DNA of 64,000 bases from Bacteroidota bacterium (GTDB lineage Bacteria > Bacteroidota > Bacteroidia > 2-12-FULL-35-15), in contig SXIH01000038.1 of NCBI GenBank assembly GCA_005772895.1, forward strand, positions 42,941 to 106,940. The letters are read 5' to 3'. Every line of letters begins with the position of its first letter. Position 1 is the stretch's first letter. The position numbers and the translations under genes were made by a program. Positions 44,401 through 55,502 of this stretch are shown piece after piece. Under the pieces are notes generated by a model that was given only the letters and a program-made list of their open reading frames with translations, was not told the origin of the DNA and did not search any database.

Positions 44401-47372
44401 CAACATATATTCCAAGTGCTGCTGATACTACTTCCGGTTCTGTAACACTTACATTGAGTTCAACAAATTCTTGTTCAGTTATTACTGATGTAATGGTAAT
44501 TACAATTACAGATGGCCCTTCTGTTTCAGCAGGTGCAGATGTAAATGTTTGCTCTAATAATCCTGATGCGAATTTAACTGCAGTAATAAGTGGCGCAACA
44601 ACAACAGGTATTTGGACAACAGCAGGAACAGGAACAATTTCTCCATCAGCAACAAGTTTAGCAATTACATATTCACCATCTGCAACTGATATTTTAAATG
44701 GAAGTGTTGATTTAATAATTACATCAACAGGAAACGGAACTTGTAATGCAGTTTTTGATACAGTAACAATAATTATTACTCCACCGCCTGCAGCATTTGC
44801 AGGAAATGATACTTCTATTTGTGCAAATACATCTTTCCAATTATCTGGAGTAATAACCGGTGGTGCAGGAACAGGAAACTGGACAACATCCGGATCGGGA
44901 ACTTTTTCACCTGCAAGTAATATTTTAAATGCAATTTATATTCCTAGCAATGCCGATACTTTAAGTGGAACTGTAACTTTAACATTGACGTCAACAAACA
45001 ATGGTGGATGTATTGCAGTAAGTGATAATATTGTTATAACAATTACTGATGCTCCAATTGCAAACGCAGGTGTTGACCAAGGTGTTTGCTCTAATAATCC
45101 TGCAGTTGCATTGAGTGGTTCTGTAACTCAGGCTAGTGGAGGTGTTTGGACAACCAGCGGAACAGGAACATTTGATGTTGCAACAAATTTAAATGCAAAT
45201 TATACTCCTTCTCCTGCAGATATTTTAAGTGGAACAATTACTTTAACACTTACAACAACTGGTAATGGAAATTGTAATCCTGCAGTTGATTCAATGTCGG
45301 TTAATTTTTCTCCTGCTCCAATTGTAAATGCAAATGCGGATCAATTTATTTGTACAGGAACTACCACAGCAGTTTTAAATGGAAGTGTTAGTGGTGGAAG
45401 TATAACAGGAATATGGACAACATTGGGTTCTGGAACATTTAGTTTGGATACCGATATGAATGCTACTTATACTTTGAGTAGTGCTGATACAACAGCAGGT
45501 TCAGTAACTCTTATTCTTACATCAACAAGTAATGGAAATTGTTTAGCAGTTTCTGATACAATGCAAATTACAATCACAACTATTCCTACTTCTAATTCAG
45601 GATTAGATCAAATACTTTGTGCAAATAATGCAAACGTAATTTTAAACGGAATTATTACAGGTGGCTCAGGAATGGGTCAATGGTCAACATATAACGGTAC
45701 AGGAACATTCAGTCCTTCGGATACAACATTAAATGCAACTTACAATTCGAGTGCTGCAGATACCGCGCAAGGTTTTGTTTCACTTGTGTTAACTCCTATC
45801 AACGCATGTTTAAATGTTCCGGATACTTTACAAATTACATTTACTGATGCTCCGGTTATTTTTGCAGGAAACGATCAATCCATTTGTAATGGAGGTACGA
45901 TCAGTTTGAGTGCAACTATGAATGCTGTGTCATCAGGAATGATTTGGACTACGAGCGGTACAGGGACGTTTGCGCCTGATGATTCTTCTTTAGCTGTAAC
46001 TTATAATCCATCTGTTGGAGATGCAACTTTAGACACTATTTATTTTTATGCTACTACAACAGGAAATGGAAATTGTTTTGCAGTGATGGATACTGTTATG
46101 GTTTTATTGGGAAATACTCCTGTTGCAGATTTTACAACTTCAGGTAATTGTAGCGGACTATTAGTTTCGTTTACAGATATTTCAACAGTTTCGCCTGGAA
46201 CAGTAAGCGGATGGATTTGGGATTTTGGTGATACTAATACATCGGTTTTACAAAATCCAACAAACATTTACACAGCAGCGGGAACATATACTGTAACTTT
46301 GGTTGCATCTTCCGGTGCAGGTTGCAGTGATTCGATTGTAAAAGTAATTGTTATTAATCCTCTACCTGTTGCAGCATTTAGTTATGTTTCAAATTGTACT
46401 TCTGACAGTGTTCTGTTTACAGATAATTCTACTATTTCTTCCGGTACAATTTCACAATGGTCATGGAATTTTGGAGATTCAACATCTTCAGTATTGCAAA
46501 ATCCGATTCAAGTTTATAGTGTGATAGATACATTCTCGGTTACACTTACTGTTACTTCTGATTCTGGTTGTGTTGCAAATATTACACAAAATGTAATTGT
46601 TGCTCCACGACCAACTGCAAACTTTGGTTACTCTATTAATTGTGCAACTGGCATAGCAATTTTTACTGATTCGTCAACGATAGACGGAAACGATTCCATT
46701 ATTTCTTATAGTTGGAATTTTGGAAATAGTACGACTTCTACACTTCAAAATCCTTTACCTGTAATGTATAATCCGGGAACGTATATTGTTCAGCTGATTG
46801 TAACAACGCAAGGAGGCTGTAGTGATATTGATACTGTAACGATAGTTATAACAGCTCCTCCGATTGCAGATTATATTCCTCAGGGTGGACAATACCAAAT
46901 CGGACAAACAATAAACTTTACAGATCAAAGTCAAAATGCCACTTCTTACTATTGGACTTTTGGAAACAATAATAATACATCCATTGTTCAGAATCCAAGT
47001 TATTCATATGGAGTGAATGGTAATTATATTGTGACACTTATCGCTACAAACGCAAGCGGCTGTTCTGATACTGCAGCATATCAATTTGAAATAATCGGAA
47101 GTTCAATAGTTGCACCTACTGCATTTTCACCAAATGGTGATGGATTGAATGATTACTTCAGCATCAAAGGCGGACCATTTAATTCTTATGAATTAAGAGT
47201 GTTTAATGAATGGGGACAACAAATATTTATTTCTAATAGCCAAGATACCGGTTGGGATGGAACATATAAAAGAAAAGACCAGCCAGCTGGTTCATACGTT
47301 TATATTTTTGTTGGAGTAAGCTATACAAATGAAGAAATTAAAATGCAAGGAGAAATTGCTATAACACGTTAA
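38451..47372 (+). CDS. Giant cell-surface adhesin-like protein (2973 aa) with a T9SS type-B C-terminal sorting domain
   Basis: Signal peptide, then a ~520-aa N-terminal region, then 14 tandem ~80-aa repeats (SPVCxGATxNLTSNTxAGATYSWTGP..F.S.LEDP), 10 tandem ~90-aa repeats (AG.DQ.VC.NN....L.G.V...W.TSGTG.F.P), four PKD-like domains (W.FGD...S..QNP...Y...G.Y.V.L), and the terminal gliding-motility-associated C-terminal domain (FSPNGDGLNDYF.I.G....Y.L.VFNEWGQ..F). Confidence 0.8.
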   Translation: MKKIYSCIFLFLLSFLLPLTISATHIVGGVLNYVYNGSNSYTVTLTLYRDCGVGSAAYPATVTIQVQQPNGSEFAPSRDITGIPGGPITNVPYTLDSCAVTPSPIPCVQMRTYSATVTLPPVSGGYHLYYSLCCRNSTLSNTTTSDQTPGQDGESFYAFIPGTSLWYEDFTLANGTTVDAGPTAWTRTLGAVPPGYASVQANLFEVQGASNAQATWTSQVINISTLTAGANLSVDLSEAGNMDANDSIFTYYSLNGGPLTQFTTNGLRVDDFTAVVASQNGLIGTTVQIVVRVHYDAASPTTELYRFDNVQVYNSVSNSNPTYTLFPPLFLCVGNFFTFDHSATDLDGDSLFYSFYTPYADAAPTFPLNVATFTPLIWNAGYSATSPLNAGGPALTLNSATGLLSGTPNSIGQFQVGVKTTEYRSGIKVSDMVRDFQFNIINCPPPAQALITPSGTLSVCSGSTLTFPNNSDAAATNWTWNFGDLSTTSDTSTLQYPTYTYPGPGSYTATLITNAGTSCADTSTAVVTVTTPPASPTAGSNSPVCVGATLNLTATPVGGATYTWTGPNSFSSTLQNPSIAGVTALAAGTYSVTATVAGCTGPAGTTTVVVNSAPAAPTAGSNSPVCEGSPLNLTANTIAGATYSWTGPNAFSSALEDPTIASPTVLASGTYSVTVTVGGCTGPAGTTSVTVNPSPVAPTVGSNSPVCAGSTILLTSNTIAGATYSWTGPAAYSSSLEDPTRPVATAAMAGTYSLTVTVAGCTSPVATTTVVVNPTPAAPTAGSNSPVCAGATINLTSNTVAGATYSWTGPSAFSSALEDPTIASATAAMAGTYSLTVTVGGCTSPVATTTVVVNPIPAAPTVGSNSPVCTGATILLTSNTIAGATYSWTGPAAFASALEDPTRPAATLAMAGTYSLTVTVAGCTSPVSTTTVVVNSTPVAPTAGSNSPVCAGATINLTSNTVVGATYSWTGPSAFSSSLEDPSIASATAAMAGTYSLTVTVAGCTSPVATTTVVVNPTPAAPTAGSNSPVCVGATINLTSNTVAGATYSWTGPSAFSSALEDPSIASATLAMAGTYSLTVTVAGCTSPVATTTVVVNPIPAAPTVGSNSPVCTGTPINLTSNTIAGATYSWTGPAAFASALEDPIRPSATLAMAGTYSLTVTVAGCTSPVATTTVVVNPTPATPTAGSNSPICDGATLNLTSNTIAGATYSWTGPNSFSSALEDPSIVGATTLASGTYSVTATVAGCTSNPGTTVVTVNPIPAAPTVGSNSPVCTGTTILLTSNTIAGATYAWTGPAAFASALEDPTRPAATLAMAGTYSLTVTVAGCTSPVATTTVVVNPTPAAPTAGSNSPVCAGATINLTSNTVAGATYSWTGPSAFSSLLEDPSIASATAAMAGTYSLTVTVAGCTSPVATTTVVVNPIPATPTAGSNSPICVGATLNLTTPAVAGATYSWTGPNSFSSALQNPSIVGATALATGTYSISVTVLGCTSAIGTVAVTVNSAPVSPTASSNTPVCSGDSLLLFASTIAGATYSWTGPNSFTSTLQNPFIVGATTLAAGTYTVVANNGCASSPATTTVVVNPTPVAPTAGSNGPLCEGATLNLTSNTIAGATYSWTGPNSFSSALEDPSIVGVTAIASGTYSVSVTVNGCTGPIGTIAVVINQPAVASAGPNQTVCANNAIINISGTVTGGSTTGIWSTSGTGTFSPSNTSLSATYNPTSADTASGSITLTLTSTLNGACAASVSSLVITITNAPTVNAGVDQSVCANNANTNLNGVVTTAGGGLWSTSGSGTFSPDNITLNATYIPSAADTTSGIVTLTLTSTGNGTCIAVSDTMIITITNAPIANAGADQFVCLSSPNATLSGTIIGGAGTGIWTTSGTGTFSPSATSLTATYIPSSVDTAAGNVVIVLTTTANGGCAAATDTMTINYTTIPTVDAGVDQTVCANNASVLLNGTVNGTSNTGIWSTSGTGIFTPNDSTLNATYIPSAADTTSGSVTLTLSSTNSCSVITDVMVITITDGPSVSAGADVNVCSNNPDANLTAVISGATTTGIWTTAGTGTISPSATSLAITYSPSATDILNGSVDLIITSTGNGTCNAVFDTVTIIITPPPAAFAGNDTSICANTSFQLSGVITGGAGTGNWTTSGSGTFSPASNILNAIYIPSNADTLSGTVTLTLTSTNNGGCIAVSDNIVITITDAPIANAGVDQGVCSNNPAVALSGSVTQASGGVWTTSGTGTFDVATNLNANYTPSPADILSGTITLTLTTTGNGNCNPAVDSMSVNFSPAPIVNANADQFICTGTTTAVLNGSVSGGSITGIWTTLGSGTFSLDTDMNATYTLSSADTTAGSVTLILTSTSNGNCLAVSDTMQITITTIPTSNSGLDQILCANNANVILNGIITGGSGMGQWSTYNGTGTFSPSDTTLNATYNSSAADTAQGFVSLVLTPINACLNVPDTLQITFTDAPVIFAGNDQSICNGGTISLSATMNAVSSGMIWTTSGTGTFAPDDSSLAVTYNPSVGDATLDTIYFYATTTGNGNCFAVMDTVMVLLGNTPVADFTTSGNCSGLLVSFTDISTVSPGTVSGWIWDFGDTNTSVLQNPTNIYTAAGTYTVTLVASSGAGCSDSIVKVIVINPLPVAAFSYVSNCTSDSVLFTDNSTISSGTISQWSWNFGDSTSSVLQNPIQVYSVIDTFSVTLTVTSDSGCVANITQNVIVAPRPTANFGYSINCATGIAIFTDSSTIDGNDSIISYSWNFGNSTTSTLQNPLPVMYNPGTYIVQLIVTTQGGCSDIDTVTIVITAPPIADYIPQGGQYQIGQTINFTDQSQNATSYYWTFGNNNNTSIVQNPSYSYGVNGNYIVTLIATNASGCSDTAAYQFEIIGSSIVAPTAFSPNGDGLNDYFSIKGGPFNSYELRVFNEWGQQIFISNSQDTGWDGTYKRKDQPAGSYVYIFVGVSYTNEEIKMQGEIAITR
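40045..43440 (+). repeat. 14 near-identical tandem ~240-bp coding repeats inside the giant adhesin gene
   Basis: Long stretches are identical at the nucleotide level (for example aattctcctgtttgtgc...ggaacatatagtttaacagt recurs). This explains the many spurious overlapping ORFs on both strands in the track. Confidence 0.85.
43440..46120 (+). repeat. 10 tandem ~270-bp coding repeats (second repeat class) inside the giant adhesin gene
   Basis: Periodic AG.DQ.VCANN ... ITITNAP units. More diverged than the first repeat class. Confidence 0.7.
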
Positions 47373-47376
47373 TGTT

Positions 47377-48366
47377 ATGAAAAAAGCACTCACATATTTT
47401 ATCTTGATTTGCAGTTATACTTTGTCTGCACAGGATTTTCACATATCGCAGTACGATGTGTTGACGTTGTATAATAATCCAGGATTAACCGGAGTTTACA
47501 ATGAAGAACAAAAAGTAGATTATAAAGTTTATTTGACTCATCGTTCTCAATGGAAGTCGTTAGGGATTAAACCTTTTAAGACTTATTCTGTTGCATACGA
47601 TATGAAATATAAACGTTTTGGAATAGGAGGAGTGCTTCTGAATAATCGCTCAGGTGCGGGAAATTTTAACACATTAAACTTTCTACTTTCTGGTTCATAT
47701 TTTATTGTTAAAGATCCTGAATCTCCACATACTCTAAATGTTGGACTTCAGATGGGTTTAATAAACAAGTCTTTCGACTCTGAAAAATATTTGTATGAAA
47801 GTCAGTACAATTCTTCAACCGGAATGCTTGATGAAAATATTGAAAGCGGGGAGATGTATTCAAAAACAAGCATTTTAAGATTTGATGCAAATGTTGGCGT
47901 TTATTATAGTTACAATGAAAAATCAAAAAACTATCATCCTTTCATTGGTTTTTCATTTTATCATTTGACAAAGCCAAATGAATCATTTACTACTACACCA
48001 AGCAGAATGCCTATGCGATTTAATTTAAATCCAGGGTGTGAATTTATTGTTAATGAAAAAGTAAAATTGACTCCGAGTATTTTATACATGAATCAGGCAA
48101 AAGCTTCAGAGTTTAATATCGGTGTATTAGGAACATATCGAATAAAAGAAAAAAATGATGTTATTTATGGGTTGAATTATCGTTGGAAGGATGCAATTAT
48201 TATTCATGTTGGTTTCCGGAAAGATAATTTAGTTTTGAGAATGAGTTATGATGTGAATGCTTCTTATTTGTCTCCTTATACAGGACGTAAAGGAGGATTT
48301 GAAATGTCGTTAACGATGACCGGTAAAAAAGGGGAAAATCCACTTAAATCAGTAAAGTCTTTTTAG
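47377..48366 (+). CDS. PorP/SprF-family type IX secretion system membrane protein
   Basis: 329 aa with a signal peptide and the QDxH(F)SQY N-terminal motif. It sits 4 nt downstream of a type-B CTD cargo gene, the canonical cargo-PorP pairing. Confidence 0.75.
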   Translation: MKKALTYFILICSYTLSAQDFHISQYDVLTLYNNPGLTGVYNEEQKVDYKVYLTHRSQWKSLGIKPFKTYSVAYDMKYKRFGIGGVLLNNRSGAGNFNTLNFLLSGSYFIVKDPESPHTLNVGLQMGLINKSFDSEKYLYESQYNSSTGMLDENIESGEMYSKTSILRFDANVGVYYSYNEKSKNYHPFIGFSFYHLTKPNESFTTTPSRMPMRFNLNPGCEFIVNEKVKLTPSILYMNQAKASEFNIGVLGTYRIKEKNDVIYGLNYRWKDAIIIHVGFRKDNLVLRMSYDVNASYLSPYTGRKGGFEMSLTMTGKKGENPLKSVKSF

Positions 48367-48375
48367 GAATTTCTA

Positions 48376-49710
48376 CTATATCAATCCTCTCGCTTTCAAT
48401 TCCAAATATTTATTTATAGTATTTACAGATAAATTTTGCGGAGCGGCTAAAATGCTATGAATACCATATTTCTCTAATTCTTTTACAATCAATTTTTTTT
48501 CGTAAGAAAACTTTTCTGCAATTGTTTTGTTGTATACTTCTTCAGTGCTGATAGCTGGTTTATTAAGAAAAGAGCGTAATTCGGTATTTTCAAAAAAGAT
48601 TACAACTAGTAAATGATCTTTGGCAATTCGTCTTAAATATTTTAATTGTCGCTGTAAGCCCGACAATGTTTCAAAGTTGGTATACAATAAAAACAAACTC
48701 CGTTGATTGATTTTTGTTTTTACATTAATGTATAAATTTTCAAAATCACTTTCCAAATAACCTGTTTTTTGATTGTACAGCAATTCCATTATTTTTTGCA
48801 ATTGCGCATTTCTTCTGTCAGCGGGTAAAACAGATTGTACTTTGTTCGAAAAAGTAACGATTCCGGCTTTGTCTTGTTTGAGCATGGCAATGTTGGAAAT
48901 CACCAAGCTGGAGTTGATTGCATAATCCAAAAGACTTAATCCTTCAAATGGCATACGCATAATCCGTCCCATATCAATTACCGAATACACCTGTTGTGAT
49001 TTTTCATCTTGATATTGATTGATCATCAATTTGTTCCTACGGGCAGTAGCTTTCCAGTTTACTGTTCTATAATCATCGCCTGCAACGTATTCTTTTATTT
49101 GTTCAAATTCAGCATTGTTTCCTCTTCTCCGTATTTTCTTAATTCCGGCATCTGTTAACCTGTTGGAGATAGCTAATAATTCATATTTACGCATTTGCAT
49201 AAAGGATGGATAAACCGGAACCATCATGTCTTGCGAAAAGCGATAACGTTTTTTAATAAATCCAATCGGGCTTTTTACATAAATATTTACAGCTCCGAAA
49301 TGATATTCACCGCGCTTTACAGGATGAACGTCATATTCGATAATCTTATTTTTGCCTGGTTCAATGGATAATTTAAACTCTTTATCACGTGCCTGAAACT
49401 GAAAAGGCAACTCATCGATTATTCCAATACGTGCAGGAAATAAATATCGGTTTTCAATAATTATTTGAACAGGGTTGTCGTCTCCATTAGATAATTTATC
49501 CAATGTATCTCTTCGTGCAAAAATGCCATCTTTGTTTATGAAAAGTATTAGTATGTCAATAAAAAACAAAGCAACAATTGCAATTAAAACATAATGAGCA
49601 ATTATGTAAAGTGTAGGAAAGAAAAATCCAAGTACCAGAAATACTACTTCTGCTGCTATAATATAGTATAGCAGATTTGAAATGTATATGGACTTGAAAA
49701 ATGTTTTCAT
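48376..49710 (-). CDS. DUF58 domain protein (vWA-like, two N-terminal TM helices)
   Basis: 444 aa with the DUF58 signature GNNAEFEQIKEYVAGDDYRTVNWKATARRNKLMINQYQDE. Confidence 0.7.
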   Translation of the reverse strand: MKTFFKSIYISNLLYYIIAAEVVFLVLGFFFPTLYIIAHYVLIAIVALFFIDILILFINKDGIFARRDTLDKLSNGDDNPVQIIIENRYLFPARIGIIDELPFQFQARDKEFKLSIEPGKNKIIEYDVHPVKRGEYHFGAVNIYVKSPIGFIKKRYRFSQDMMVPVYPSFMQMRKYELLAISNRLTDAGIKKIRRRGNNAEFEQIKEYVAGDDYRTVNWKATARRNKLMINQYQDEKSQQVYSVIDMGRIMRMPFEGLSLLDYAINSSLVISNIAMLKQDKAGIVTFSNKVQSVLPADRRNAQLQKIMELLYNQKTGYLESDFENLYINVKTKINQRSLFLLYTNFETLSGLQRQLKYLRRIAKDHLLVVIFFENTELRSFLNKPAISTEEVYNKTIAEKFSYEKKLIVKELEKYGIHSILAAPQNLSVNTINKYLELKARGLI

Positions 49711-49715
49711 TTTAA

Positions 49716-50693
49716 TTATCTTGGAATTTCAATTTTTTCGATGATTCCTTTGATGACATCCTTTGTTGTAATTCCTTCCATTTCTTTTTCAGGAGTTAAA
49801 ATAACTCTGTGTTTTAAAACATGTGAGGCAACAAATTTCACATCATCCGGTGTAACAAAATCTCTTCCACGCATTGCTGCAATTGCCTTCGAGCTGGTTA
49901 AAATGGCTAGTGATGCACGTGGGGATGCACCCAGATACAAAGAAGAATTATTTCTTGTTTGATTTACAATTTTTGCAATGTAAGAGATTAAGTTTGCATC
50001 AATGTGAACATGCCCTACTTTTTCTCTGTAGTCTGCTACTTCAGAAGCATTCATTACACCAATAACCGAATTAATATCTATTTTGTTTTTACTTGCATGA
50101 TAATCTCCAATAATCTTAGTTTCATCATCCAATGTTGGATAGTCAACTTCTATTTTAAATAAAAACCTATCAAGCTGTGCTTCGGGTAAACGATATGTTC
50201 CTTCTTGTTCAACAGGATTCTGAGTTGCCAATACTATGAATGGCGGAGCTAGTAAATAAGTTTTCCCATCAACCGTGATTTGACGCTCTTCCATTGCTTC
50301 AAATAAAGCAGATTGTGTTTTTGCCGGAGCACGATTGATTTCATCAATTAAAACTATGTTTGAAAAAAGAGGTCCTTGCTTAAACTCAAATTCCGATGTT
50401 TTCAAATTGTAAATACTAGTTCCGATAATATCAGAAGGCATTAAATCTGGAGTAAATTGAATTCTGGAAAATCCAACTTTCATTGTTCTTGCCAAAAGTT
50501 TTGCGGAAAGTGTTTTTGCAACACCCGGAACACCTTCAATTAAAACATGTCCATCAGCCAAAACTGCTGCAATCAATAATTCTATCATATTGTCTTGCCC
50601 GACAATGATTTTGTTGACTTCTCTTTTAATGTTGGTTACAGCTAGCTGCAGTCCACTTAAATCAACTCTGTTTTGAAATACTTGTTCTTCCAT
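49716..50693 (-). CDS. MoxR-family AAA+ ATPase
   Basis: 325 aa with Walker A HVLIEGVPGVAKT, Walker B VLIDEINRAPAKTQSALFEAMEE, and a conserved C-terminal MoxR region. Confidence 0.9.
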   Translation of the reverse strand: MEEQVFQNRVDLSGLQLAVTNIKREVNKIIVGQDNMIELLIAAVLADGHVLIEGVPGVAKTLSAKLLARTMKVGFSRIQFTPDLMPSDIIGTSIYNLKTSEFEFKQGPLFSNIVLIDEINRAPAKTQSALFEAMEERQITVDGKTYLLAPPFIVLATQNPVEQEGTYRLPEAQLDRFLFKIEVDYPTLDDETKIIGDYHASKNKIDINSVIGVMNASEVADYREKVGHVHIDANLISYIAKIVNQTRNNSSLYLGASPRASLAILTSSKAIAAMRGRDFVTPDDVKFVASHVLKHRVILTPEKEMEGITTKDVIKGIIEKIEIPR

Positions 50694-50733
50694 ATTTGTT
50701 AGTTTTATTTTTTAATATTGTCTGAAATGTCAA

Positions 50734-51963
50734 TTACCTTTTATTCTTTTTGTGAAACTCTTCAATCATTCTATTTAATTTTAATAACTCTTGCTGACTA
50801 ATCGCAGATTTTACACTTATATCTGCAAAATAGTAAAACAAGTCATGCACTTTTTGTCTTTCAATTCCTGATAAATTTGTTATTCTATCAATAAAAACAT
50901 CGTCATATAAGTTTGTTTTTACTTGAAAAGTTGAACGAATGTATTCTAAAAAGTATACTATTTTTTTATCAGCAATATTTTTGTGATTTCCTGTTTGATA
51001 GTATAAAGTGCCAACAATATCAACAAAATCCAAAGTTGTATTACGCAATGGTTCTACAACAGGAATGATTCTTTGTTTGCGTTTTATTCCTATAATTATA
51101 AATAATAATAAGGAAAGCAATAAAACATAGTACGCACTTTTTAAAGCCGGATTATTAAAAATAACTCTTAATGAGCTTTCTTTTTTAATATTACCTGCTT
51201 TATAATGTTCATCCCAAATAACTGTTTGGTTCGGTAGGTACGACAATGCTTTATAAGAATAATCGTAATTCTGTTTGTTGACAAAAAGATAATTTGTAAA
51301 CACTTCAGGAACCGTACTCAAATAAATATTACCTTTTCCCCAATTGATTTTAATAAAGTTAATCTTGTTGTCAATAGTATTTCCTAAGACTATTGTTTTT
51401 GATGTATCGAATGATTTAAAATAAGTATTGTCTATTCCCTTTGAATAAACATAATTTGTTTTTCGCTTTAATAGTGGGTTTGTAAAATTTATTACTGCTG
51501 TATCATATGGCTTATAAAATTGGCTGAGACTTATTGAATCATTTTCAAATGTTTCTTCAATTCCATAATAGTTATCTGTCTCTAACTTTAGAGTATCAGC
51601 AAATTTTCCGGAAAAATAATTTGCAGCAATAAATATTGAGTTTCCATTTTTTGCAAATTCTAGTAACTCACGTGTATCTAATTTGTCGGGTTCAAATGTA
51701 TTGTTAATGATGATATAATTGCTTTTTGTTAAGTCCTGATCGTTTAATACATTATATATGGGGAACATTTCTGTATTAATTTCCTGCCCGGGAAAAATAC
51801 TTGGCAACACATCATATAAAGCAGACGTTCCAAATGGAATAATATCTTTTTTCATAAAAGTCTGAGCCCAATTGATTGGTTTTGGTGCCATCACTTGAAG
51901 TAAGATAAGTCCTATGAAACAAAGGCTTACAATAAAAATATATTTTTTGCTGCCTTTAAACAT
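50734..51963 (-). CDS. Hypothetical membrane-anchored protein (DUF4350-like)
   Basis: 409 aa with an N-terminal TM anchor, a large extracytoplasmic domain and a C-terminal TM helix. The position within the MoxR/DUF58 module fits DUF4350, but I cannot confirm by motif. Confidence 0.35.
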   Translation of the reverse strand: MFKGSKKYIFIVSLCFIGLILLQVMAPKPINWAQTFMKKDIIPFGTSALYDVLPSIFPGQEINTEMFPIYNVLNDQDLTKSNYIIINNTFEPDKLDTRELLEFAKNGNSIFIAANYFSGKFADTLKLETDNYYGIEETFENDSISLSQFYKPYDTAVINFTNPLLKRKTNYVYSKGIDNTYFKSFDTSKTIVLGNTIDNKINFIKINWGKGNIYLSTVPEVFTNYLFVNKQNYDYSYKALSYLPNQTVIWDEHYKAGNIKKESSLRVIFNNPALKSAYYVLLLSLLLFIIIGIKRKQRIIPVVEPLRNTTLDFVDIVGTLYYQTGNHKNIADKKIVYFLEYIRSTFQVKTNLYDDVFIDRITNLSGIERQKVHDLFYYFADISVKSAISQQELLKLNRMIEEFHKKNKR

Positions 51964-52720
51964 TTATTTTAAATTCTTTAAACTTGTTGATGCTGCTCTT
52001 GAAATTATTTTCATCTAATTGAAAATCTCCATACCAGATATATTCATACATCAGTGCTAACTCTTTAAACTTGCTACTAAATTTGCTGTTGGAGAGTTCC
52101 ATTGAATAATCATTATTGGTTTTGTCGATTTGCCAGGAAATCAAATTTTTGTCGGTGAGCTCTTTAAGTAATTTCAAAAAATGTAATCTGACAGCTTTGC
52201 GATAATCCATTTTATTGATAGCGTCTGCAATCAATTCGTCAAAATTTATTTTGTGAATGTCTTCGTTAAACTCTTTAAAATCAATTGCTACAGAAGCACT
52301 TTTTCCATAAAAGACAGCTCGTATGTCATTTTTTAAAACCAGCAGAACAATTGCAATGATTACAGCTGCTATTAAAATATATTGAAAAATGCTCAACCCA
52401 ATTTGTCCGCCATCGGAACTAAAAATGTCACCAACTTTTCGCCAAAACCATTCTTTGAATCTCTCCCACCATGATTTTGGTGCCGGACCAACCCGATCGT
52501 ATTTGTAATCGGAATTATCTAATAATTTTTCTTGTTCATCAGGATTAAGCTGCCGAACCTGAACTTTACTTGAGTCGTACTTTACATCAACTTTTGTTTG
52601 TGTGGAATCGTTTAATGCAAAAACTGTATTGCCCTTTATAATTATAAAGAACAATACAGAAATAGTAAAAAGTAAACGTTTAATATTGTTGATTGACATT
52701 TGCACTCGGAGCTGTTCCAA
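51956..52720 (-). CDS. DUF4129 domain protein
   Basis: 254 aa with a central TM helix and the C-terminal YRKAVRLHFLKLLKELTDKNLISW...KTNNDY block typical of DUF4129. Confidence 0.5.
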   Translation of the reverse strand: MEQLRVQMSINNIKRLLFTISVLFFIIIKGNTVFALNDSTQTKVDVKYDSSKVQVRQLNPDEQEKLLDNSDYKYDRVGPAPKSWWERFKEWFWRKVGDIFSSDGGQIGLSIFQYILIAAVIIAIVLLVLKNDIRAVFYGKSASVAIDFKEFNEDIHKINFDELIADAINKMDYRKAVRLHFLKLLKELTDKNLISWQIDKTNNDYSMELSNSKFSSKFKELALMYEYIWYGDFQLDENNFKSSINKFKEFKINV

Positions 52721-53663
52721 TTTCGTTTATTCTTTCCATCAATCCTTTTCCATCATTTTTTTCCGCTAAACTATAATAATGAACTCCGTTTATTACATAC
52801 ATAACGCTATATAGTAATGTGGTGCAGAATGTACAAATAGTTGCAACAATTACAAATGGGATGGATGTTTCATTTTCATTGCCTTGCATACTGCTAAATG
52901 TTAAAAACATTTGATATGCAATTTGAGGTAGCGTAAAAACAACTCCGGCTATTCCAATCGCAAAACTTGTACACACTACTATTAACCAAGTCCACCAAAA
53001 ATTTCCTCTCATTACTTCTCTTGTTTTCCCGAAAGATGTTAATACTCCTGAGCCTTCGTCCATTTTGACTAAATATACTGCTGATAATTGCCATATAAGC
53101 GGTGGAAATAAAATTAACATTCCAAAAATAGCCGCTAACATGAACAGAACTCCTAACATTGGAACAGCAACACCAATTGCTACCCCTAATGCAACTGCAC
53201 CTCCAATTACTACGATTAGCAATAATGTTAATCCGAAAAATACTCCAAGAATTCCTCCTGTATTTTTAAGCAATGTATTTCCTACATCATTAACTGTAAA
53301 TTGGCCAGGCCCCTTTTCTGAATAATTTATCATGAATGAATACACCGTACCTACTAAAGCTAAATTTGCCAGGATACTTGAAATTAAAAATATCAAATAT
53401 GTCCAACCAAATTGTTCAAATATGATATCCCAAGGATCACTTCCGTAACCAGACATCATTCCTGATTGCAGTCTGCTCTGCATAGTAATTGCATTGGCTT
53501 GATAAAATGCTCCTGCAATTGAACTAATTAATAAAAATGGTCCAGCGATGAACACAAGTGATTTTAAAAACAGTTTAAAATTTTGTCGAACTAATTTAAT
53601 AGAAGCATTAAATGTTTCTCCAAAATCTCGGACTTGACGAAAATTAATTTTTTCTTGATTCAT
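52680..53663 (-). CDS. Hypothetical polytopic membrane protein (glycine-zipper rich)
   Basis: 327 aa with several TM helices and GxxxG/A-rich segments. Part of the conserved module. Confidence 0.35.
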   Translation of the reverse strand: MNQEKINFRQVRDFGETFNASIKLVRQNFKLFLKSLVFIAGPFLLISSIAGAFYQANAITMQSRLQSGMMSGYGSDPWDIIFEQFGWTYLIFLISSILANLALVGTVYSFMINYSEKGPGQFTVNDVGNTLLKNTGGILGVFFGLTLLLIVVIGGAVALGVAIGVAVPMLGVLFMLAAIFGMLILFPPLIWQLSAVYLVKMDEGSGVLTSFGKTREVMRGNFWWTWLIVVCTSFAIGIAGVVFTLPQIAYQMFLTFSSMQGNENETSIPFVIVATICTFCTTLLYSVMYVINGVHYYSLAEKNDGKGLMERINEIGTAPSANVNQQY

Positions 53664-53682
53664 GTTTTCGAATTTTAAATGA

Positions 53683-54651
53683 CTACAAATTACTTTTTTG
53701 TGCCTTGTTGTTTAATTGAATAGGATAAATAATAAAATACCAAATGATAAAACTGAAAGATGCACCTATGATCAATAGGCTTAACCACATTGGCATATTG
53801 CTGTATCTGGTAACAAATGACTCTAAAAATCCTGCAGCAATAAATACGGGAACTAATCCTATAATTATTTTCACCCCTTGTTTAGCTCCTCTTACAAATG
53901 ATACTCCTCTGGAATACGTCCCTGGAAATAAAATACTATTTCCCATTGTTAATCCTGCACAACCTGCAATCACAATGGCTGAAATTTCTAATGTACCATG
54001 TATCCAGATAACTAATGCGGATTGTAATAAAACTCCTTTTGTGTAAAAAAAACATTGGAATGCTCCAACCATTACTCCGTTTGTAAATAACATATAGCCT
54101 GTTCCAAATGAAAAGAATATTCCCATTGCGAAACAAACAAATGAAACATAAATATTGTTTACTGTAATTATTGAAAACATATTTCCCTGACTCATTCCTT
54201 TGTAAATGGCCATTGGATCACCTTTGTCTATATTTTCAAGTGTTTCATTCACATATTGATCACCTAAAATCAATCTAACAAAGGTGTCGTCATATAAACA
54301 TGAAACAACTCCAATTAAAAATGCAACAGCAAAAATGATAAAAGCGTAGAGCAGTTGTTTGTGAGAGTTTTTGAAAATAAAGGGTAGTTCATATTTCCAA
54401 TAAGAAATAATGCGTGATTTTTTTTCTTTTTTGTTCTTATAGATTTCTTGATGGACTCTTGCTGCAATAGAGTTAAGATATTGAGTAGTTTTTGCTTTTG
54501 GATAATGCGTTTTGGAATAAGATAAATCATCGGTAAGTTGAATAAATAAATCAGCCATTAAATCGGGATTTGAACCTCCTTTGGTTGTAATGAGTGTTTC
54601 AAACTCTTGCCATTTTTCGGCATTTTGCTTTAAAAAAGTAATTTCCTTCAC
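53683..54651 (-). CDS. Stage II sporulation protein M-like (DUF95) membrane protein
   Basis: 322 aa with the SpoIIM-like blocks NN..V.F..FA.GI, FTNG...G and HGTLEISAIVIAG...FLESFVTR. Confidence 0.55.
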   Translation of the reverse strand: MKEITFLKQNAEKWQEFETLITTKGGSNPDLMADLFIQLTDDLSYSKTHYPKAKTTQYLNSIAARVHQEIYKNKKEKKSRIISYWKYELPFIFKNSHKQLLYAFIIFAVAFLIGVVSCLYDDTFVRLILGDQYVNETLENIDKGDPMAIYKGMSQGNMFSIITVNNIYVSFVCFAMGIFFSFGTGYMLFTNGVMVGAFQCFFYTKGVLLQSALVIWIHGTLEISAIVIAGCAGLTMGNSILFPGTYSRGVSFVRGAKQGVKIIIGLVPVFIAAGFLESFVTRYSNMPMWLSLLIIGASFSFIIWYFIIYPIQLNNKAQKSNL

Positions 54652-54785
54652 AATCCGATTATTGTTTCATGTCTTTTGCGTTTATCCAGCACGCAGTTCT
54701 GTAAATTTATACAAAATAATCGTTAAAAAAAGGGTTTTTTATAATCCATTTAAATGCTTATTTTTATGGAAAATCCTCTCTTTAC

Positions 54786-55502
54786 ATGGATAACATTAAA
54801 ATACAAACTACTCAAAACGTTGATATCGAATACGAATTGGCAAGTGTTGGCGATCGTATTTTGGCTACCCTCTTGGATTATCTGTTTTTCTTCGGCTATA
54901 TGCTTTTGGTTTTTCTTTTTATAGGCTTAATCGGAAGCCACATTGAAGACAATTTATGGTTGCTGATTGTTCTTTTTCTTCCCATTTTACTTTATGATTT
55001 ATTGTGTGAAATGTTTTTTCAAGGAAAATCATTCGGGAAAATGATTATGAAAATTAAAGTTGTAAAATTGGATGGAACGCAAGCCGGTTTCGGAGCTTAT
55101 TTATTGCGATGGCTTTTGCGAATTATTGATACACGTATGTTTTCCGGTGGAATAGCTTTGATTGCAATTTTAGCTAATGGAAAAGGCCAGCGTATTGGAG
55201 ATATGGCTGCAGGAACAACGGTCATTAAAATGAAACAAAAAGTAACTATTAATGATACAATTTTAAATAAAGTAAAACCAAAATATACTATTGTTTACGA
55301 AGAAGTATCAAAACTTTCTGATTCAGATATTGCTATAATAAAAGAAGTGATGCAGGTTTCTTTGCGAACAGGTAATCAGCAGGCAATCGACAGACTAGCA
55401 AAAAAGACAAAAGAAACAATGGGAATTACTACCAATTTACCTCATACACAATTTTTAGCAACTGTTGTTCAGGATTATACTCAGTATAATTTCGATAAGT
55501 AG
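54786..55502 (+). CDS. RDD-family membrane protein
   Basis: 238 aa with an N-terminal RDD domain (R..A.LLDYL.....), three TM helices and a soluble C-terminal region. Confidence 0.65.
   Translation: MDNIKIQTTQNVDIEYELASVGDRILATLLDYLFFFGYMLLVFLFIGLIGSHIEDNLWLLIVLFLPILLYDLLCEMFFQGKSFGKMIMKIKVVKLDGTQAGFGAYLLRWLLRIIDTRMFSGGIALIAILANGKGQRIGDMAAGTTVIKMKQKVTINDTILNKVKPKYTIVYEEVSKLSDSDIAIIKEVMQVSLRTGNQQAIDRLAKKTKETMGITTNLPHTQFLATVVQDYTQYNFDK

What the first reader, a model, noticed from the sequence alone, without database searches (positions are those of the whole stretch)
48376..55502. Conserved seven-gene MoxR / DUF58 / DUF4350-like / DUF4129 / membrane / SpoIIM-like / RDD module of unknown function, adjacent to the giant T9SS adhesin
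Six genes are tightly packed on the minus strand (48376..54651) and a divergent RDD gene follows at 54786..55502. Several overlaps (51956/51963 and 52680/52720) suggest a single transcriptional unit. A MoxR AAA+ ATPase paired with a vWA-like DUF58 protein is an established chaperone/activator duo. Here it is joined by four membrane proteins with no assigned function (DUF4350-like, DUF4129, a glycine-zipper membrane protein and a SpoIIM-like DUF95 protein). No biochemical role for this assembly has, to my knowledge, been established. The module sits directly downstream of the adhesin + PorP/SprF pair, which suggests a surface or envelope-associated role (inference only).
Basis: partly seen in the sequence, partly recalled or inferred. 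Interest (0 to 1): 0.7.

Follow-up and report, generated by a model that had tools for sequence, protein, structure and literature searches.

The report
Conserved MoxR-linked seven-gene membrane module
The seven genes are real and form a strongly conserved module, found from Bacteroidota to Actinomycetota and Proteobacteria, that most likely builds an ATPase-serviced inner-membrane complex of unknown output; it has no conserved link to the neighbouring adhesin.

Summary
Pfam confirms DUF58, MoxR (AAA_3), DUF4350, SpoIIM and RDD above threshold. DUF4129 is below threshold in this copy, but 23 of 37 orthologues match it. The unassigned "glycine-zipper" protein (ORF5) is a diverged member of the GPDPase_memb/DUF7847/DUF975 membrane superfamily. 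Its model resembles CysZ and choline-transporter-like proteins, which is suggestive only.

Co-conservation is strong. Of 50 Bacteroidota species-level loci found through ORF5, 32 carry the full order RDD(-) | SpoIIM-ORF5-DUF4129-DUF4350-MoxR-DUF58(+). Another 14 are cut by contig ends but agree.

The gene set recurs, rearranged, in other groups:
- Nonomuraea (Actinomycetota) has all seven families.
- Rhizobium and Paracoccus have six, with DUF805 in place of ORF5.
- Catenovulum has five, plus an unassigned 515-aa membrane protein.
- By annotation, Mycobacterium Rv3689-Rv3695 carries at least six.

In Bernardetia, SpoIIM and ORF5 are fused into one protein.

The adhesin/PorP neighbour is kept in only 1 of 28 informative loci, so the inferred surface or T9SS role is not supported.

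Best reading: membrane-anchored DUF58 docks the MoxR hexamer onto a co-encoded inner-membrane complex and remodels it. I found no published function. It is a new variant of MoxR-vWA systems, of moderate interest.

The parts
48376..49710 (-). DUF58 protein, 444 aa. The sequence shows two N-terminal hydrophobic segments (a TM hairpin); the automatic scan merged them into one at residues 40-58. The rest is a large C-terminal, predicted cytoplasmic, vWA-like domain. The motif after the first vWA strand is D-x-G-R-x-M instead of the MIDAS D-x-S-x-S.
   Evidence: Pfam PF01882, 59.8 bits. Hydropathy. The cross-phylum alignment shows D and G invariant and no serines. No relative in the PDB by sequence.
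49716..50693 (-). MoxR-type AAA+ ATPase, 325 aa, soluble. Walker A (GVPGVAKT) and Walker B (LIDEINRA) are intact.
   Evidence: Pfam AAA_3 4e-64 and AAA_lid_2 3e-23. Closest solved structure is 2r44_A, E 2e-83. Motifs read from the translation.
50734..51963 (-). DUF4350 protein, 409 aa, bitopic. It has an N-terminal signal anchor (residues 8-26), a periplasmic domain of about 245 aa, a TM segment at 273-291 and a basic cytoplasmic tail of 118 aa.
   Evidence: Pfam PF14258, 49.1 bits. Hydropathy and K/R counts. The family is described as GldG-like with a flavodoxin-like fold by HHpred in PMC5898192; I did not re-test this.
51956..52720 (-). DUF4129-type protein, 247 aa if it starts at the ATG at 52699. 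It has a signal peptide, about 80 periplasmic residues, a TM segment at 111-129 (numbered from the TTG start at 52720) and a cytoplasmic helical domain of about 125 aa.
   Evidence: Pfam DUF4129 at 18.6 bits, below GA. 23 of 37 orthologues match, best 2e-8. Start site inferred from the L001 orthologue. Topology.
52680..53663 (-). ORF5, a polytopic all-helical membrane protein of 327 aa. It is a diverged member of the GPDPase_memb/DUF7847/DUF4013/DUF975 superfamily, with a CysZ/CTL-like predicted fold.
53683..54651 (-). SpoIIM-family membrane protein, 322 aa. A cytoplasmic N-terminal domain of about 99 aa (DUF8413) precedes 5-6 TM helices. Polar residues N166, N191, H218, E222 and E277 are invariant.
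   Evidence: Pfam PF01944 2e-36. PF28475/DUF8413 is precomputed on orthologues. Cross-phylum invariants. AF2 model pLDDT 75. No specific PDB fold match.
54786..55502 (+). RDD-family membrane protein, 238 aa, transcribed divergently. Signature residues R24, D31 and D139 are conserved, and a soluble tail of about 90 aa follows the membrane domain.
   Evidence: Pfam PF06271 7e-19. Cross-phylum invariants.
54652..54785 (.). The 134-nt divergent intergenic region between SpoIIM and RDD, presumed to hold promoters for both directions.
   Evidence: Sequence read. The median gap at this position in 31 loci is 120 nt. No promoter was shown: the sigma-70 scan was no better than shuffled sequence.

Best explanation
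The seven genes encode one cytoplasmic-membrane machine.

Five integral membrane proteins form the membrane body:
- the SpoIIM-like protein;
- the RDD protein;
- ORF5, with a CysZ/CTL-like fold;
- the bitopic DUF4350 protein, which puts a domain of about 245 aa in the periplasm;
- the bitopic DUF4129 protein, which puts a helical domain in the cytoplasm.

The DUF58 protein is tethered by an N-terminal TM hairpin, with its vWA-like domain in the cytoplasm. It acts as the adaptor that docks the soluble MoxR AAA+ hexamer onto this body. ATP hydrolysis by MoxR then assembles the complex or switches its conformation, as other MoxR-vWA pairs do for their own dedicated clients.

The most likely output is a housekeeping inner-membrane or envelope function: gated movement of a small solute or lipid head-group-like molecule, or envelope remodelling. 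It is not a T9SS or adhesin-specific role.

Shown here: gene content, order, conservation, the SpoIIM-ORF5 fusion, predicted topology and the ORF5 fold resemblance.
Inferred: that the proteins form a physical complex, that MoxR/DUF58 acts on it, and what the output is.
For: 1. Order and orientation are conserved in 32 complete and 14 contig-truncated loci out of 50 Bacteroidota species-level loci. This holds down to 26-30% ORF5 identity, with overlapping or near-abutting genes.

2. The same families are clustered, in a different order, elsewhere:
- Nonomuraea has all seven: RDD, SpoIIM, DUF58, MoxR, DUF4350 (1e-29), DUF4129 (9.5e-12) and an ORF5 homologue (hhalign 95.8%, E 8e-9).
- Rhizobium and Paracoccus carry the set with DUF805 in place of ORF5.
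- Catenovulum carries RDD, SpoIIM, DUF4350, MoxR and DUF58.
- Prevotella has all seven.

3. In M. chelonae, six genes of the cluster (membrane protein, DUF4350, MoxR, DUF58, SpoIIM, RDD, mapped to Rv3689 and Rv3691-Rv3695) are down-regulated together (PMC8191103).

4. Bernardetia encodes a single 617-aa protein that is SpoIIM followed by ORF5 (hhalign 92.6%, E 4.5e-7 over 276 columns). This is a Rosetta-stone link between the two.

5. Rv3694c (SpoIIM) and Rv3695 (RDD) were recovered together in one Mtb membrane pull-down (PMC8093794).

6. Predicted topology places the DUF58 vWA-like domain, the DUF4129 domain, the DUF4350 tail and the SpoIIM N-terminal domain all on the cytoplasmic side, where MoxR can reach them.

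7. The MoxR Walker motifs are intact.

8. No catalytic domain other than the ATPase is present. This fits a client-plus-chaperone arrangement.
Against: No protein-protein interaction was tested, and no multimer prediction was possible.

The RDD-SpoIIM pair occurs without MoxR nearby in Arthrobacter and Bernardetia. Two Bacteroidota loci keep the five membrane genes but lack MoxR and DUF58 next to them (L023, L024). L046 lacks DUF58. The ATPase part is therefore separable.

The DUF58 domain lacks the MIDAS serines, so it may not bind a client in the way classical vWA domains do.

The loci were collected using ORF5 or SpoIIM as anchors. The 32-of-50 figure therefore measures linkage given that the anchor is present, not genome-wide co-occurrence.
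Confidence: 0.5

Rival explanations
1. There are two independent units that are often neighbours: (a) an RDD-SpoIIM(-ORF5) membrane unit, and (b) a MoxR-DUF58-DUF4350-DUF4129 unit. Each has its own function and they do not share a complex.
For: RDD|SpoIIM is found alone in Arthrobacter L060 and Bernardetia L054. L023 and L024 have lost the adjacent MoxR and DUF58. In archaea, DUF4350-MoxR-vWA clusters occur with S-layer-like proteins rather than SpoIIM (PMC5898192). In the proteobacterial loci the two blocks sit in a different relative order.
Against: The two blocks stay adjacent in four bacterial lineages despite rearrangement. In Bacteroidota, ORF5 and DUF4129 overlap by a median of 20 nt across the supposed boundary. 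In M. chelonae both blocks respond together.
Confidence: 0.2
2. The module is a septal or cell-wall remodelling scaffold. As B. subtilis SpoIIM does for SpoIID and SpoIIP, the SpoIIM-like/RDD core recruits envelope enzymes at division sites, with MoxR controlling assembly.
For: SpoIIM is the only characterised family member and works this way (PMC5898192). Rv3694c and Rv3695 were both pulled down with the divisome-associated Rv0954.
Against: No peptidoglycan hydrolase or other envelope enzyme gene is conserved in the neighbourhood. The pull-down list contains many membrane proteins and may not be specific.
Confidence: 0.15
3. It is a Bat-like stress or aerotolerance module: a paralogue of the Bacteroides aerotolerance operon that protects against oxidative or thermal stress.
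For: It shares the MoxR+DUF58 pair with the Bat operon. The Bat-operon MoxR of Riemerella affects heat and oxidative stress tolerance (PMC11834572).
Against: No BatA/BatB-type vWA or BatC-type TPR domain is detected in any module gene. The partner set is entirely different.
Confidence: 0.08
4. It is an accessory of the neighbouring T9SS adhesin or gliding apparatus.
For: It is adjacent to PorP/SprF and a 2973-aa ORF in this window and in L001 and L037. The DUF4350 family is reported to be GldG-like.
Against: The adjacency is present in only 1 of 28 informative genome loci. The module also occurs in Actinomycetota and Proteobacteria, which, to my knowledge, lack T9SS.
Confidence: 0.03
5. It is an anti-phage or conflict system of the MoxR-vWA type.
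For: A weak bpMoxR Pfam match (50 bits). Weak PADLOC hits of the ATPase to DolB and IetA (E 4e-7 to 5e-5).
Against: These hits are generic AAA+ similarity and are much weaker than AAA_3 (215 bits). No effector, beta-propeller or other PADLOC component is present. Synteny is stable and looks vertically inherited, with housekeeping flanks.
Confidence: 0.02

Closest known systems
Mycobacterial Rv3689-Rv3695 (MoxR2) cluster, equivalent to M. chelonae MAB_0386c-MAB_0392c, and the Nonomuraea locus L057
   Same: The same families are clustered: a polytopic membrane protein homologous to ORF5, DUF4129, DUF4350, MoxR, DUF58, SpoIIM and RDD. Within the five-gene block the order is the same. The M. chelonae genes are co-regulated. 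I verified the Nonomuraea locus directly.
   Different: SpoIIM is on the opposite strand, convergent with the five-gene block. The ORF5 homologue is longer (455 aa). In mycobacteria the cluster lies next to glpK and glpF. The function is equally unknown. The Mtb and M. chelonae gene content is taken from published annotation, not re-analysed here, and that table does not list Rv3690.
Bacteroides aerotolerance (Bat) operon: MoxR-DUF58-BatA-BatE
   Same: A MoxR (MRP-type) ATPase followed by a DUF58 protein, found in Bacteroidota, with membrane-associated partners.
   Different: The Bat partners are vWA (BatA, BatB) and TPR (BatC) proteins. None is present here. Here the partners are DUF4350, DUF4129, ORF5, SpoIIM and RDD.
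Archaeal arCOG01314 (DUF4350)-MoxR-vWA cluster, the 'predicted secretion or membrane remodelling complex' of Makarova et al. 2015 (PMC5898192)
   Same: DUF4350 protein with signal peptide, extracytoplasmic domain and C-terminal TM, plus a COG0714 ATPase and a vWA-type protein. The same paper notes that bacterial SpoIIM homologues neighbour vWA and COG0714 genes.
   Different: The archaeal clusters carry S-layer or Ig-like proteins rather than SpoIIM, RDD, ORF5 or DUF4129. The paper neither describes the seven-gene bacterial module nor tests it.
Dedicated MoxR-vWA chaperone or activase pairs: RavA-ViaA, NorQ-NorD, CbbQ-CbbO, CoxD-CoxE (from established knowledge, not tested here)
   Same: An AAA+ MoxR hexamer paired with a vWA-type adaptor encoded next to its client. 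This is the working analogy for the mechanism.
   Different: The clients of those pairs are soluble or respiratory metalloenzymes, and their vWA domains have a MIDAS site. Here the candidate client is a set of non-enzymatic membrane proteins, and the DUF58 domain has DxGR instead of DxSxS.
B. subtilis SpoIIM (DMP engulfment complex) and the SppI(RDD)-SppA complex
   Same: SpoIIM and RDD family membership. Both precedents show these membrane proteins acting as partners or regulators inside membrane complexes.
   Different: No SpoIID, SpoIIP or SppA gene lies in the module. The SpoIIM here has an extra N-terminal DUF8413 domain. An RDD protein has also been reported as a Na+/H+ antiporter (PMC5996927), so the role of this family is unsettled.
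CysZ (3tx3) and the choline-transporter-like proteins CTL1/PNS1 (7wwb, 9f63)
   Different: Sequence identity is 10-11% and Foldseek support is not significant. This is a fold-level resemblance only, and no transport activity can be inferred with confidence.

Membership tests
MoxR (MRP-type) AAA+ ATPase | AAA_3 core plus the AAA_lid_2 domain | tested here: met
   PF07726 at 214.7 bits and PF17863 at 81.9 bits. 2r44_A at E 2e-83.
MoxR (MRP-type) AAA+ ATPase | Intact Walker A and Walker B motifs, and an adjacent vWA/DUF58 partner gene | tested here: met
   GVPGVAKT and LIDEINRA are present in the translation. The DUF58 gene lies 5 nt downstream.
MoxR (MRP-type) AAA+ ATPase | ATP hydrolysis and hexamer formation | not testable with these tools
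   Needs biochemistry.
DUF58 (PF01882) | Pfam match above the gathering score | tested here: met
   59.8 bits against GA 23.4.
Canonical vWA domain | MIDAS motif D-x-S-x-S after the first strand | tested here: not met
   The motif is D-M-G-R-I-M. D and G are invariant across Bacteroidota, Proteobacteria and Actinomycetota orthologues, and no serines are present.
Bat (Bacteroides aerotolerance) operon | BatA/BatB vWA membrane proteins and the BatC TPR protein downstream of MoxR-DUF58 | tested here: not met
   No VWA or TPR Pfam hit in any of the seven proteins.
DUF4350 / arCOG01314 | PF14258 match, with an N-terminal signal, an extracytoplasmic domain and a C-terminal TM | tested here: met
   49.1 bits against GA 30.4. 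TM segments at 8-26 and 273-291.
DUF4350 / arCOG01314 | GldG-like, flavodoxin-like fold of the extracytoplasmic domain | not tested
   Reported by HHpred for the archaeal family (PMC5898192). No NCBIfam GldG hit at E<=0.01.
DUF4129 (PF13559) | Pfam match above the gathering score | tested here: inconclusive
   The window copy scores 18.6-18.7 bits, below GA 24.8. 23 of 37 orthologues match at E<=0.01, best 2e-8. The gene at the same position in Nonomuraea scores 45.3 bits. A direct profile comparison to the Nonomuraea protein is weak.
GPDPase_memb / DUF7847 / DUF4013 / DUF975 membrane superfamily (ORF5) | Sequence match to one of these Pfam families | tested here: inconclusive
   The window protein has no hit. 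Among 68 family members, 15 hit GPDPase_memb, 8 DUF4013 and 7 DUF7847. The Nonomuraea homologue (hhalign 95.8%) scores 42 bits on GPDPase_memb against GA 29.6. Membership is therefore by transitive evidence.
SpoIIM (PF01944) | Pfam match and the conserved H-G-x-x-E membrane motif | tested here: met
   125.7 bits. H218, G219 and E222 are invariant across phyla.
SpoIIM as part of the DMP engulfment machinery | Partnership with SpoIID and SpoIIP | tested here: not met
   No such genes lie in any of the examined neighbourhoods. The rest of the genome was not examined.
RDD (PF06271) | Pfam match with the conserved Arg and two Asp residues | tested here: met
   69 bits. R24, D31 and D139 are invariant.
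T9SS or gliding accessory | Conserved linkage to T9SS genes or cargo, and restriction to T9SS-bearing phyla | tested here: not met
   PorP and the adhesin are adjacent in 1 of 28 informative genome loci. The module is present in Actinomycetota and Proteobacteria.
Known anti-phage defence systems (PADLOC) | Matches to the system's component models | tested here: not met
   Only generic AAA+ hits (DolB, IetA), plus one marginal RDD hit to PD-T4-6 at E 1.5e-4.

The most novel reading that the evidence does not exclude
The module is an ancient, widely distributed ATP-regulated inner-membrane transporter or gate. It is present in Bacteroidota, Actinomycetota (including M. tuberculosis Rv3689-Rv3695) and Proteobacteria. 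A MoxR AAA+ ring, docked through a MIDAS-less DUF58 adaptor, would open or assemble a permease built from a CysZ/CTL-fold protein together with SpoIIM and RDD. The periplasmic DUF4350 domain would act as the sensor or substrate-binding element. This would be a new class of AAA+-driven membrane transport or envelope-homeostasis machine. It would also give the non-sporulation SpoIIM and RDD families their first general function.
Probability: 0.15. Interest if true: 0.8.

Novelty: new variant of a known kind. Interest (0 to 1): 0.5.

Why it matters
MoxR-vWA pairs are known as dedicated chaperones, but most of their clients are unknown. This module offers an unusually well-defined candidate client: five co-encoded membrane proteins. 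They belong to large families with little or no settled function (SpoIIM outside sporulation, RDD, DUF4350, DUF4129, GPDPase_memb-like).

The module is conserved across at least three phyla, and by annotation it includes a locus in M. tuberculosis. Solving it in any tractable organism (Bacteroides/Prevotella, Rhizobium, M. smegmatis) would annotate thousands of genes. It might also reveal an envelope function relevant to stress tolerance or antibiotic susceptibility.

For this window specifically, the practical result is that the module should not be read as part of the adhesin/T9SS locus.

Tried and rejected
1. NCBIfam gave no specific model for six of the seven proteins.
2. PADLOC gave only generic AAA+ hits.
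3. PDB sequence searches found nothing for DUF58 or DUF4350.
4. The sigma-70 promoter and terminator scan was no better than shuffled sequence, and Bacteroidota promoters are not covered by it.
5. Fold search against afdb50 was unavailable.
6. The diverse ORF5 alignment A2 was too divergent for the search for related loci, so the closer A1 was used and the genome scan reached only Bacteroidota.
7. The second and third homologue searches with SpoIIM returned only close Bacteroidota relatives. They gave no cross-phylum reach, which came instead from tblastn against plasmids and chromids.
9. I tested whether the DUF4350 cytoplasmic tail is homologous to the DUF4129 domain. hhalign found no similarity.
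10. The archaeal Haladaptatus SpoIIM (489 aa) has only a marginal DUF7847 hit in its N-terminal half (E 0.005), and hhalign does not support it. It is not counted as a fusion.
11. The Catenovulum 515-aa protein appears to be a 4-TM domain fused to a DUF4129-like half, but only tentatively (hhalign 60%, E 9e-5). Its N-terminal part shows no ORF5 similarity.
12. The apparent second MoxR in L039 is an MgsA homologue, a false positive of my HMM.
13. Direct profile-to-sequence comparisons of the Bacteroidota DUF4350 and DUF4129 families with the proteobacterial and actinobacterial proteins were not significant. These equivalences rest on shared Pfam families, position and architecture.

Full report
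**Observation**

Six co-directional minus-strand ORFs run from 48376 to 54651, and a divergent plus-strand ORF lies at 54786-55502. Spacings are 5, 40, -8, -41 and 19 nt, with a 134-nt divergent gap.

Pfam-A assigns five of the seven proteins above the gathering score:
- DUF58: 59.8 bits
- MoxR: AAA_3 at 214.7 bits plus AAA_lid_2
- DUF4350: 49.1 bits
- SpoIIM: 125.7 bits
- RDD: 69 bits

The DUF4129 call is below threshold in this copy (18.6 bits against 24.8). At family level it holds: 23 of 37 orthologues match DUF4129 at E<=0.01, best 2e-8. Comparison with an orthologue suggests the gene really starts at the ATG at 52699, giving 247 aa and a 20-nt overlap.

The fifth protein (ORF5, 52680-53663) has no Pfam, NCBIfam or PADLOC hit.

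On one side lie a PorP/SprF gene and a 2973-aa ORF. On the other lie an S15/CocE-NonD peptidase and RNase G.

The names attached to homologues place the organism in an uncultured Bacteroidia lineage.

**Is the grouping more than chance?**

I built a profile of ORF5 homologues (A1) and used it to scan one genome per GTDB species. This gave 50 loci, all from Bacteroidota MAGs. I called ORFs in them and annotated them with HMMs iterated from the seven window proteins.

- 31 loci show the exact arrangement RDD(-) | SpoIIM, ORF5, DUF4129, DUF4350, MoxR, DUF58(+).
- A 32nd (L039) was first flagged because of a false MoxR hit that turned out to be MgsA.
- 14 are cut by contig ends but agree as far as they go.
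- L023 and L024 keep the five membrane genes but have DUF885 and an M42 peptidase where MoxR and DUF58 should be.
- L046 lacks DUF58.
- L047 has an ORF5 homologue on its own.

The order holds down to 26-30% ORF5 identity (L040, L049, L050). Median intergenic distances are between -20 and +39 nt inside the block. This is strong evidence for a selected operon-like unit. One caveat applies: the loci were anchored on ORF5.

**The adhesin neighbour**

PorP/SprF plus the giant ORF follow DUF58 only in L001 and L037. These two loci also share the other flank with the window, so they are simply close relatives. Among the 28 complete genome loci with at least 1.5 kb beyond DUF58, one has this neighbour.

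**Beyond Bacteroidota**

A tblastn search with the SpoIIM-like protein against plasmids and chromids found 62 records in several phyla. Annotation and my own domain scans show the following.

- *Prevotella sp. oral taxon 299*: all seven genes in the canonical order.
- *Catenovulum adriaticum* (Gammaproteobacteria): RDD, SpoIIM, a 515-aa membrane protein, DUF4350, MoxR and DUF58, all co-directional with overlaps.
- *Rhizobium leguminosarum* and *Paracoccus aminovorans* (Alphaproteobacteria): DUF805, a DUF4129-like protein of about 250 aa (21 bits), a DUF4350-like protein of about 430 aa, then MoxR, DUF58, SpoIIM and RDD.
- *Nonomuraea gerenzanensis* (Actinomycetota): RDD(-), SpoIIM(+), then on the minus strand DUF58, MoxR, DUF4350 (1e-29), DUF4129 (9.5e-12) and a 455-aa membrane protein. 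That protein is homologous to ORF5 (my HMM 3.6e-17; hhalign 95.8%, E 8e-9 over 292 columns) and itself scores above threshold on GPDPase_memb.

This matches what a published M. chelonae transcriptome table lists as one co-down-regulated block: genes MAB_0386c, 0387, 0388c, 0389c, 0390c and 0392c, equivalent to Mtb Rv3689 and Rv3691-Rv3695 (membrane protein, DUF4350, MoxR, DUF58, SpoIIM, RDD) (PMC8191103).

Arthrobacter and Bernardetia carry only the divergent RDD|SpoIIM pair at the locus found. That pair therefore looks like the most persistent core.

**Fusions**

The Bernardetia 'SpoIIM' is 617 aa. Residues 1-320 are SpoIIM. Residues 331-615 align with the whole ORF5 profile (hhalign 92.6%, E 4.5e-7, 276 columns), including the C-terminal Y-F-S-x-x-E motif. 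This natural fusion argues that SpoIIM and ORF5 act together.

The Catenovulum 515-aa protein may join a four-TM domain to a DUF4129-like half (hhalign 60%, E 9e-5). I treat this as tentative. A possible archaeal fusion in Haladaptatus is not supported.

**The parts**

*ORF5.* A profile search of 1.84 billion cluster representatives finds 2394 clusters at E<=1e-3 and 317 at E<=1e-30. ORF5 is therefore a sizeable family. Among 68 members, 15 hit GPDPase_memb, 8 DUF4013, 7 DUF7847, 4 DUF7544, 3 DUF975 and 2 UPF0259. This makes ORF5 a diverged branch of that membrane-protein superfamily rather than a new fold.

*SpoIIM.* The protein has a cytoplasmic N-terminal domain of about 99 aa, which newer Pfam releases call DUF8413. 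Across phyla N166, N191, H218, G219, E222, R248 and E277 are invariant. Its model (pLDDT 75) has no specific PDB counterpart.

*RDD.* R24, D31 and D139 are conserved.

*DUF58.* The sequence shows an N-terminal TM hairpin. The vWA-like domain has the motif D-x-G-R/K-x-M where a MIDAS D-x-S-x-S would be, and this is invariant from Bacteroidota to Actinomycetota.

*DUF4350 and DUF4129.* Both are bitopic. DUF4350 places about 245 residues in the periplasm and 118 in the cytoplasm. DUF4129 places about 80 residues outside and its 125-residue helical domain inside. The two cytoplasmic domains are not related to each other.

*MoxR.* It is soluble with intact Walker motifs. Its closest solved relative is 2r44.

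**Mechanism**

The only enzyme in the module is the AAA+ ATPase. All other products are membrane proteins. The cytoplasmic face of the predicted assembly carries the DUF58 vWA-like domain, the DUF4129 domain, the DUF4350 tail and the SpoIIM N-terminal domain.

From established knowledge, other MoxR-vWA pairs (RavA-ViaA, NorQ-NorD, CbbQ-CbbO, CoxD-CoxE) act on dedicated clients encoded beside them. By analogy, I propose that membrane-tethered DUF58 docks the MoxR hexamer onto a complex of the five co-encoded membrane proteins, and that MoxR assembles or switches that complex.

Several observations fit this proposal:
- the cross-phylum clustering;
- the SpoIIM-ORF5 fusion;
- the joint recovery of Rv3694c and Rv3695 in one Mtb pull-down (PMC8093794);
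- the co-regulation in M. chelonae.

The output remains inferred. The CysZ/CTL-like fold of ORF5 and a report of an RDD protein as a Na+/H+ antiporter (PMC5996927) point toward transport. SpoIIM's role in B. subtilis, the SppI(RDD)-SppA complex (PMC7568657) and the divisome pull-down point toward scaffolding of envelope enzymes.

The main rival is that the SpoIIM/RDD/ORF5 unit and the MoxR/DUF58/DUF4350/DUF4129 unit are functionally separate. This is kept alive by loci where one occurs without the other.

**Comparison with what is known**

Makarova et al. 2015 noted two things. Bacterial SpoIIM homologues neighbour a vWA protein and a COG0714 ATPase. Archaeal DUF4350 proteins cluster with MoxR and vWA in a 'predicted secretion or membrane remodelling complex'.

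The seven-gene bacterial module as such is not described or tested in any paper I could find. The library lacks most subscription journals.

It is not a Bat operon, because BatA-E are absent. It is not a known defence system. It is not T9SS-linked.

I class it as a new variant of the MoxR-vWA kind. It is conserved and real, its function is open, and it is of moderate interest.

Noticed in passing
window 38451-47372 (+) and 47377-48366 (+): A giant 2973-aa ORF is followed, 4 nt later, by a PorP/SprF gene. G+C rises to 0.41-0.44 across 40-44 kb, against about 0.33 for the surroundings. The L001 orthologue carries PKD repeats and a CHU_C domain.
   Followed up: partly
L001 9035-9994, L004 9030-9989, L037 9039-10004, L043 10981-11844: In several related genomes ORF5 is tandemly duplicated. 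The L001 paralogue is 42% identical to the window's ORF5. The window has a single copy.
   Followed up: partly
L054 9001-10854 (Bernardetia sp. Wsw4-3y2, NZ_CP147018.1): A single 617-aa ORF fuses a SpoIIM domain to an ORF5-type domain. No MoxR, DUF58, DUF4350 or DUF4129 gene lies within 9 kb.
   Followed up: yes
L023 12979-15994 and L024 (downstream of DUF4350): Two Bacteroidota species keep the five membrane genes but have a DUF885 protein and an M42 peptidase where MoxR and DUF58 normally sit. I could not check whether MoxR and DUF58 moved elsewhere in those genomes.
   Followed up: partly
window 52624-52659 (minus strand): A 16-bp stem with a 4-nt loop (-18 kcal/mol, z about -4.2) followed by a T-run lies just after the ORF5 stop, inside the 5' end of the DUF4129 gene. 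L004 has a comparably strong hairpin at this position (z -6.8). Most other loci do not (z mostly between about -3 and +1), so it is probably lineage-specific.
   Followed up: partly
window 53683-54651 (-), N-terminal ~99 aa: Precomputed annotations give orthologues a second Pfam family, PF28475 (DUF8413). The local Pfam copy used by search_protein_families did not report it.
   Followed up: no
L053 3532-4640 and L059 4251-4691: In the alphaproteobacterial versions, one or two DUF805 membrane proteins occupy the position that ORF5 holds elsewhere. They show no detectable similarity to ORF5.
   Followed up: partly
L060 10076-11251 (Arthrobacter sp. StoSoilB13): The gene after the stand-alone RDD|SpoIIM pair encodes a Lit (lipoprotein intramolecular transacylase) family protein, an envelope-modifying enzyme. 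This is a single case.
   Followed up: no
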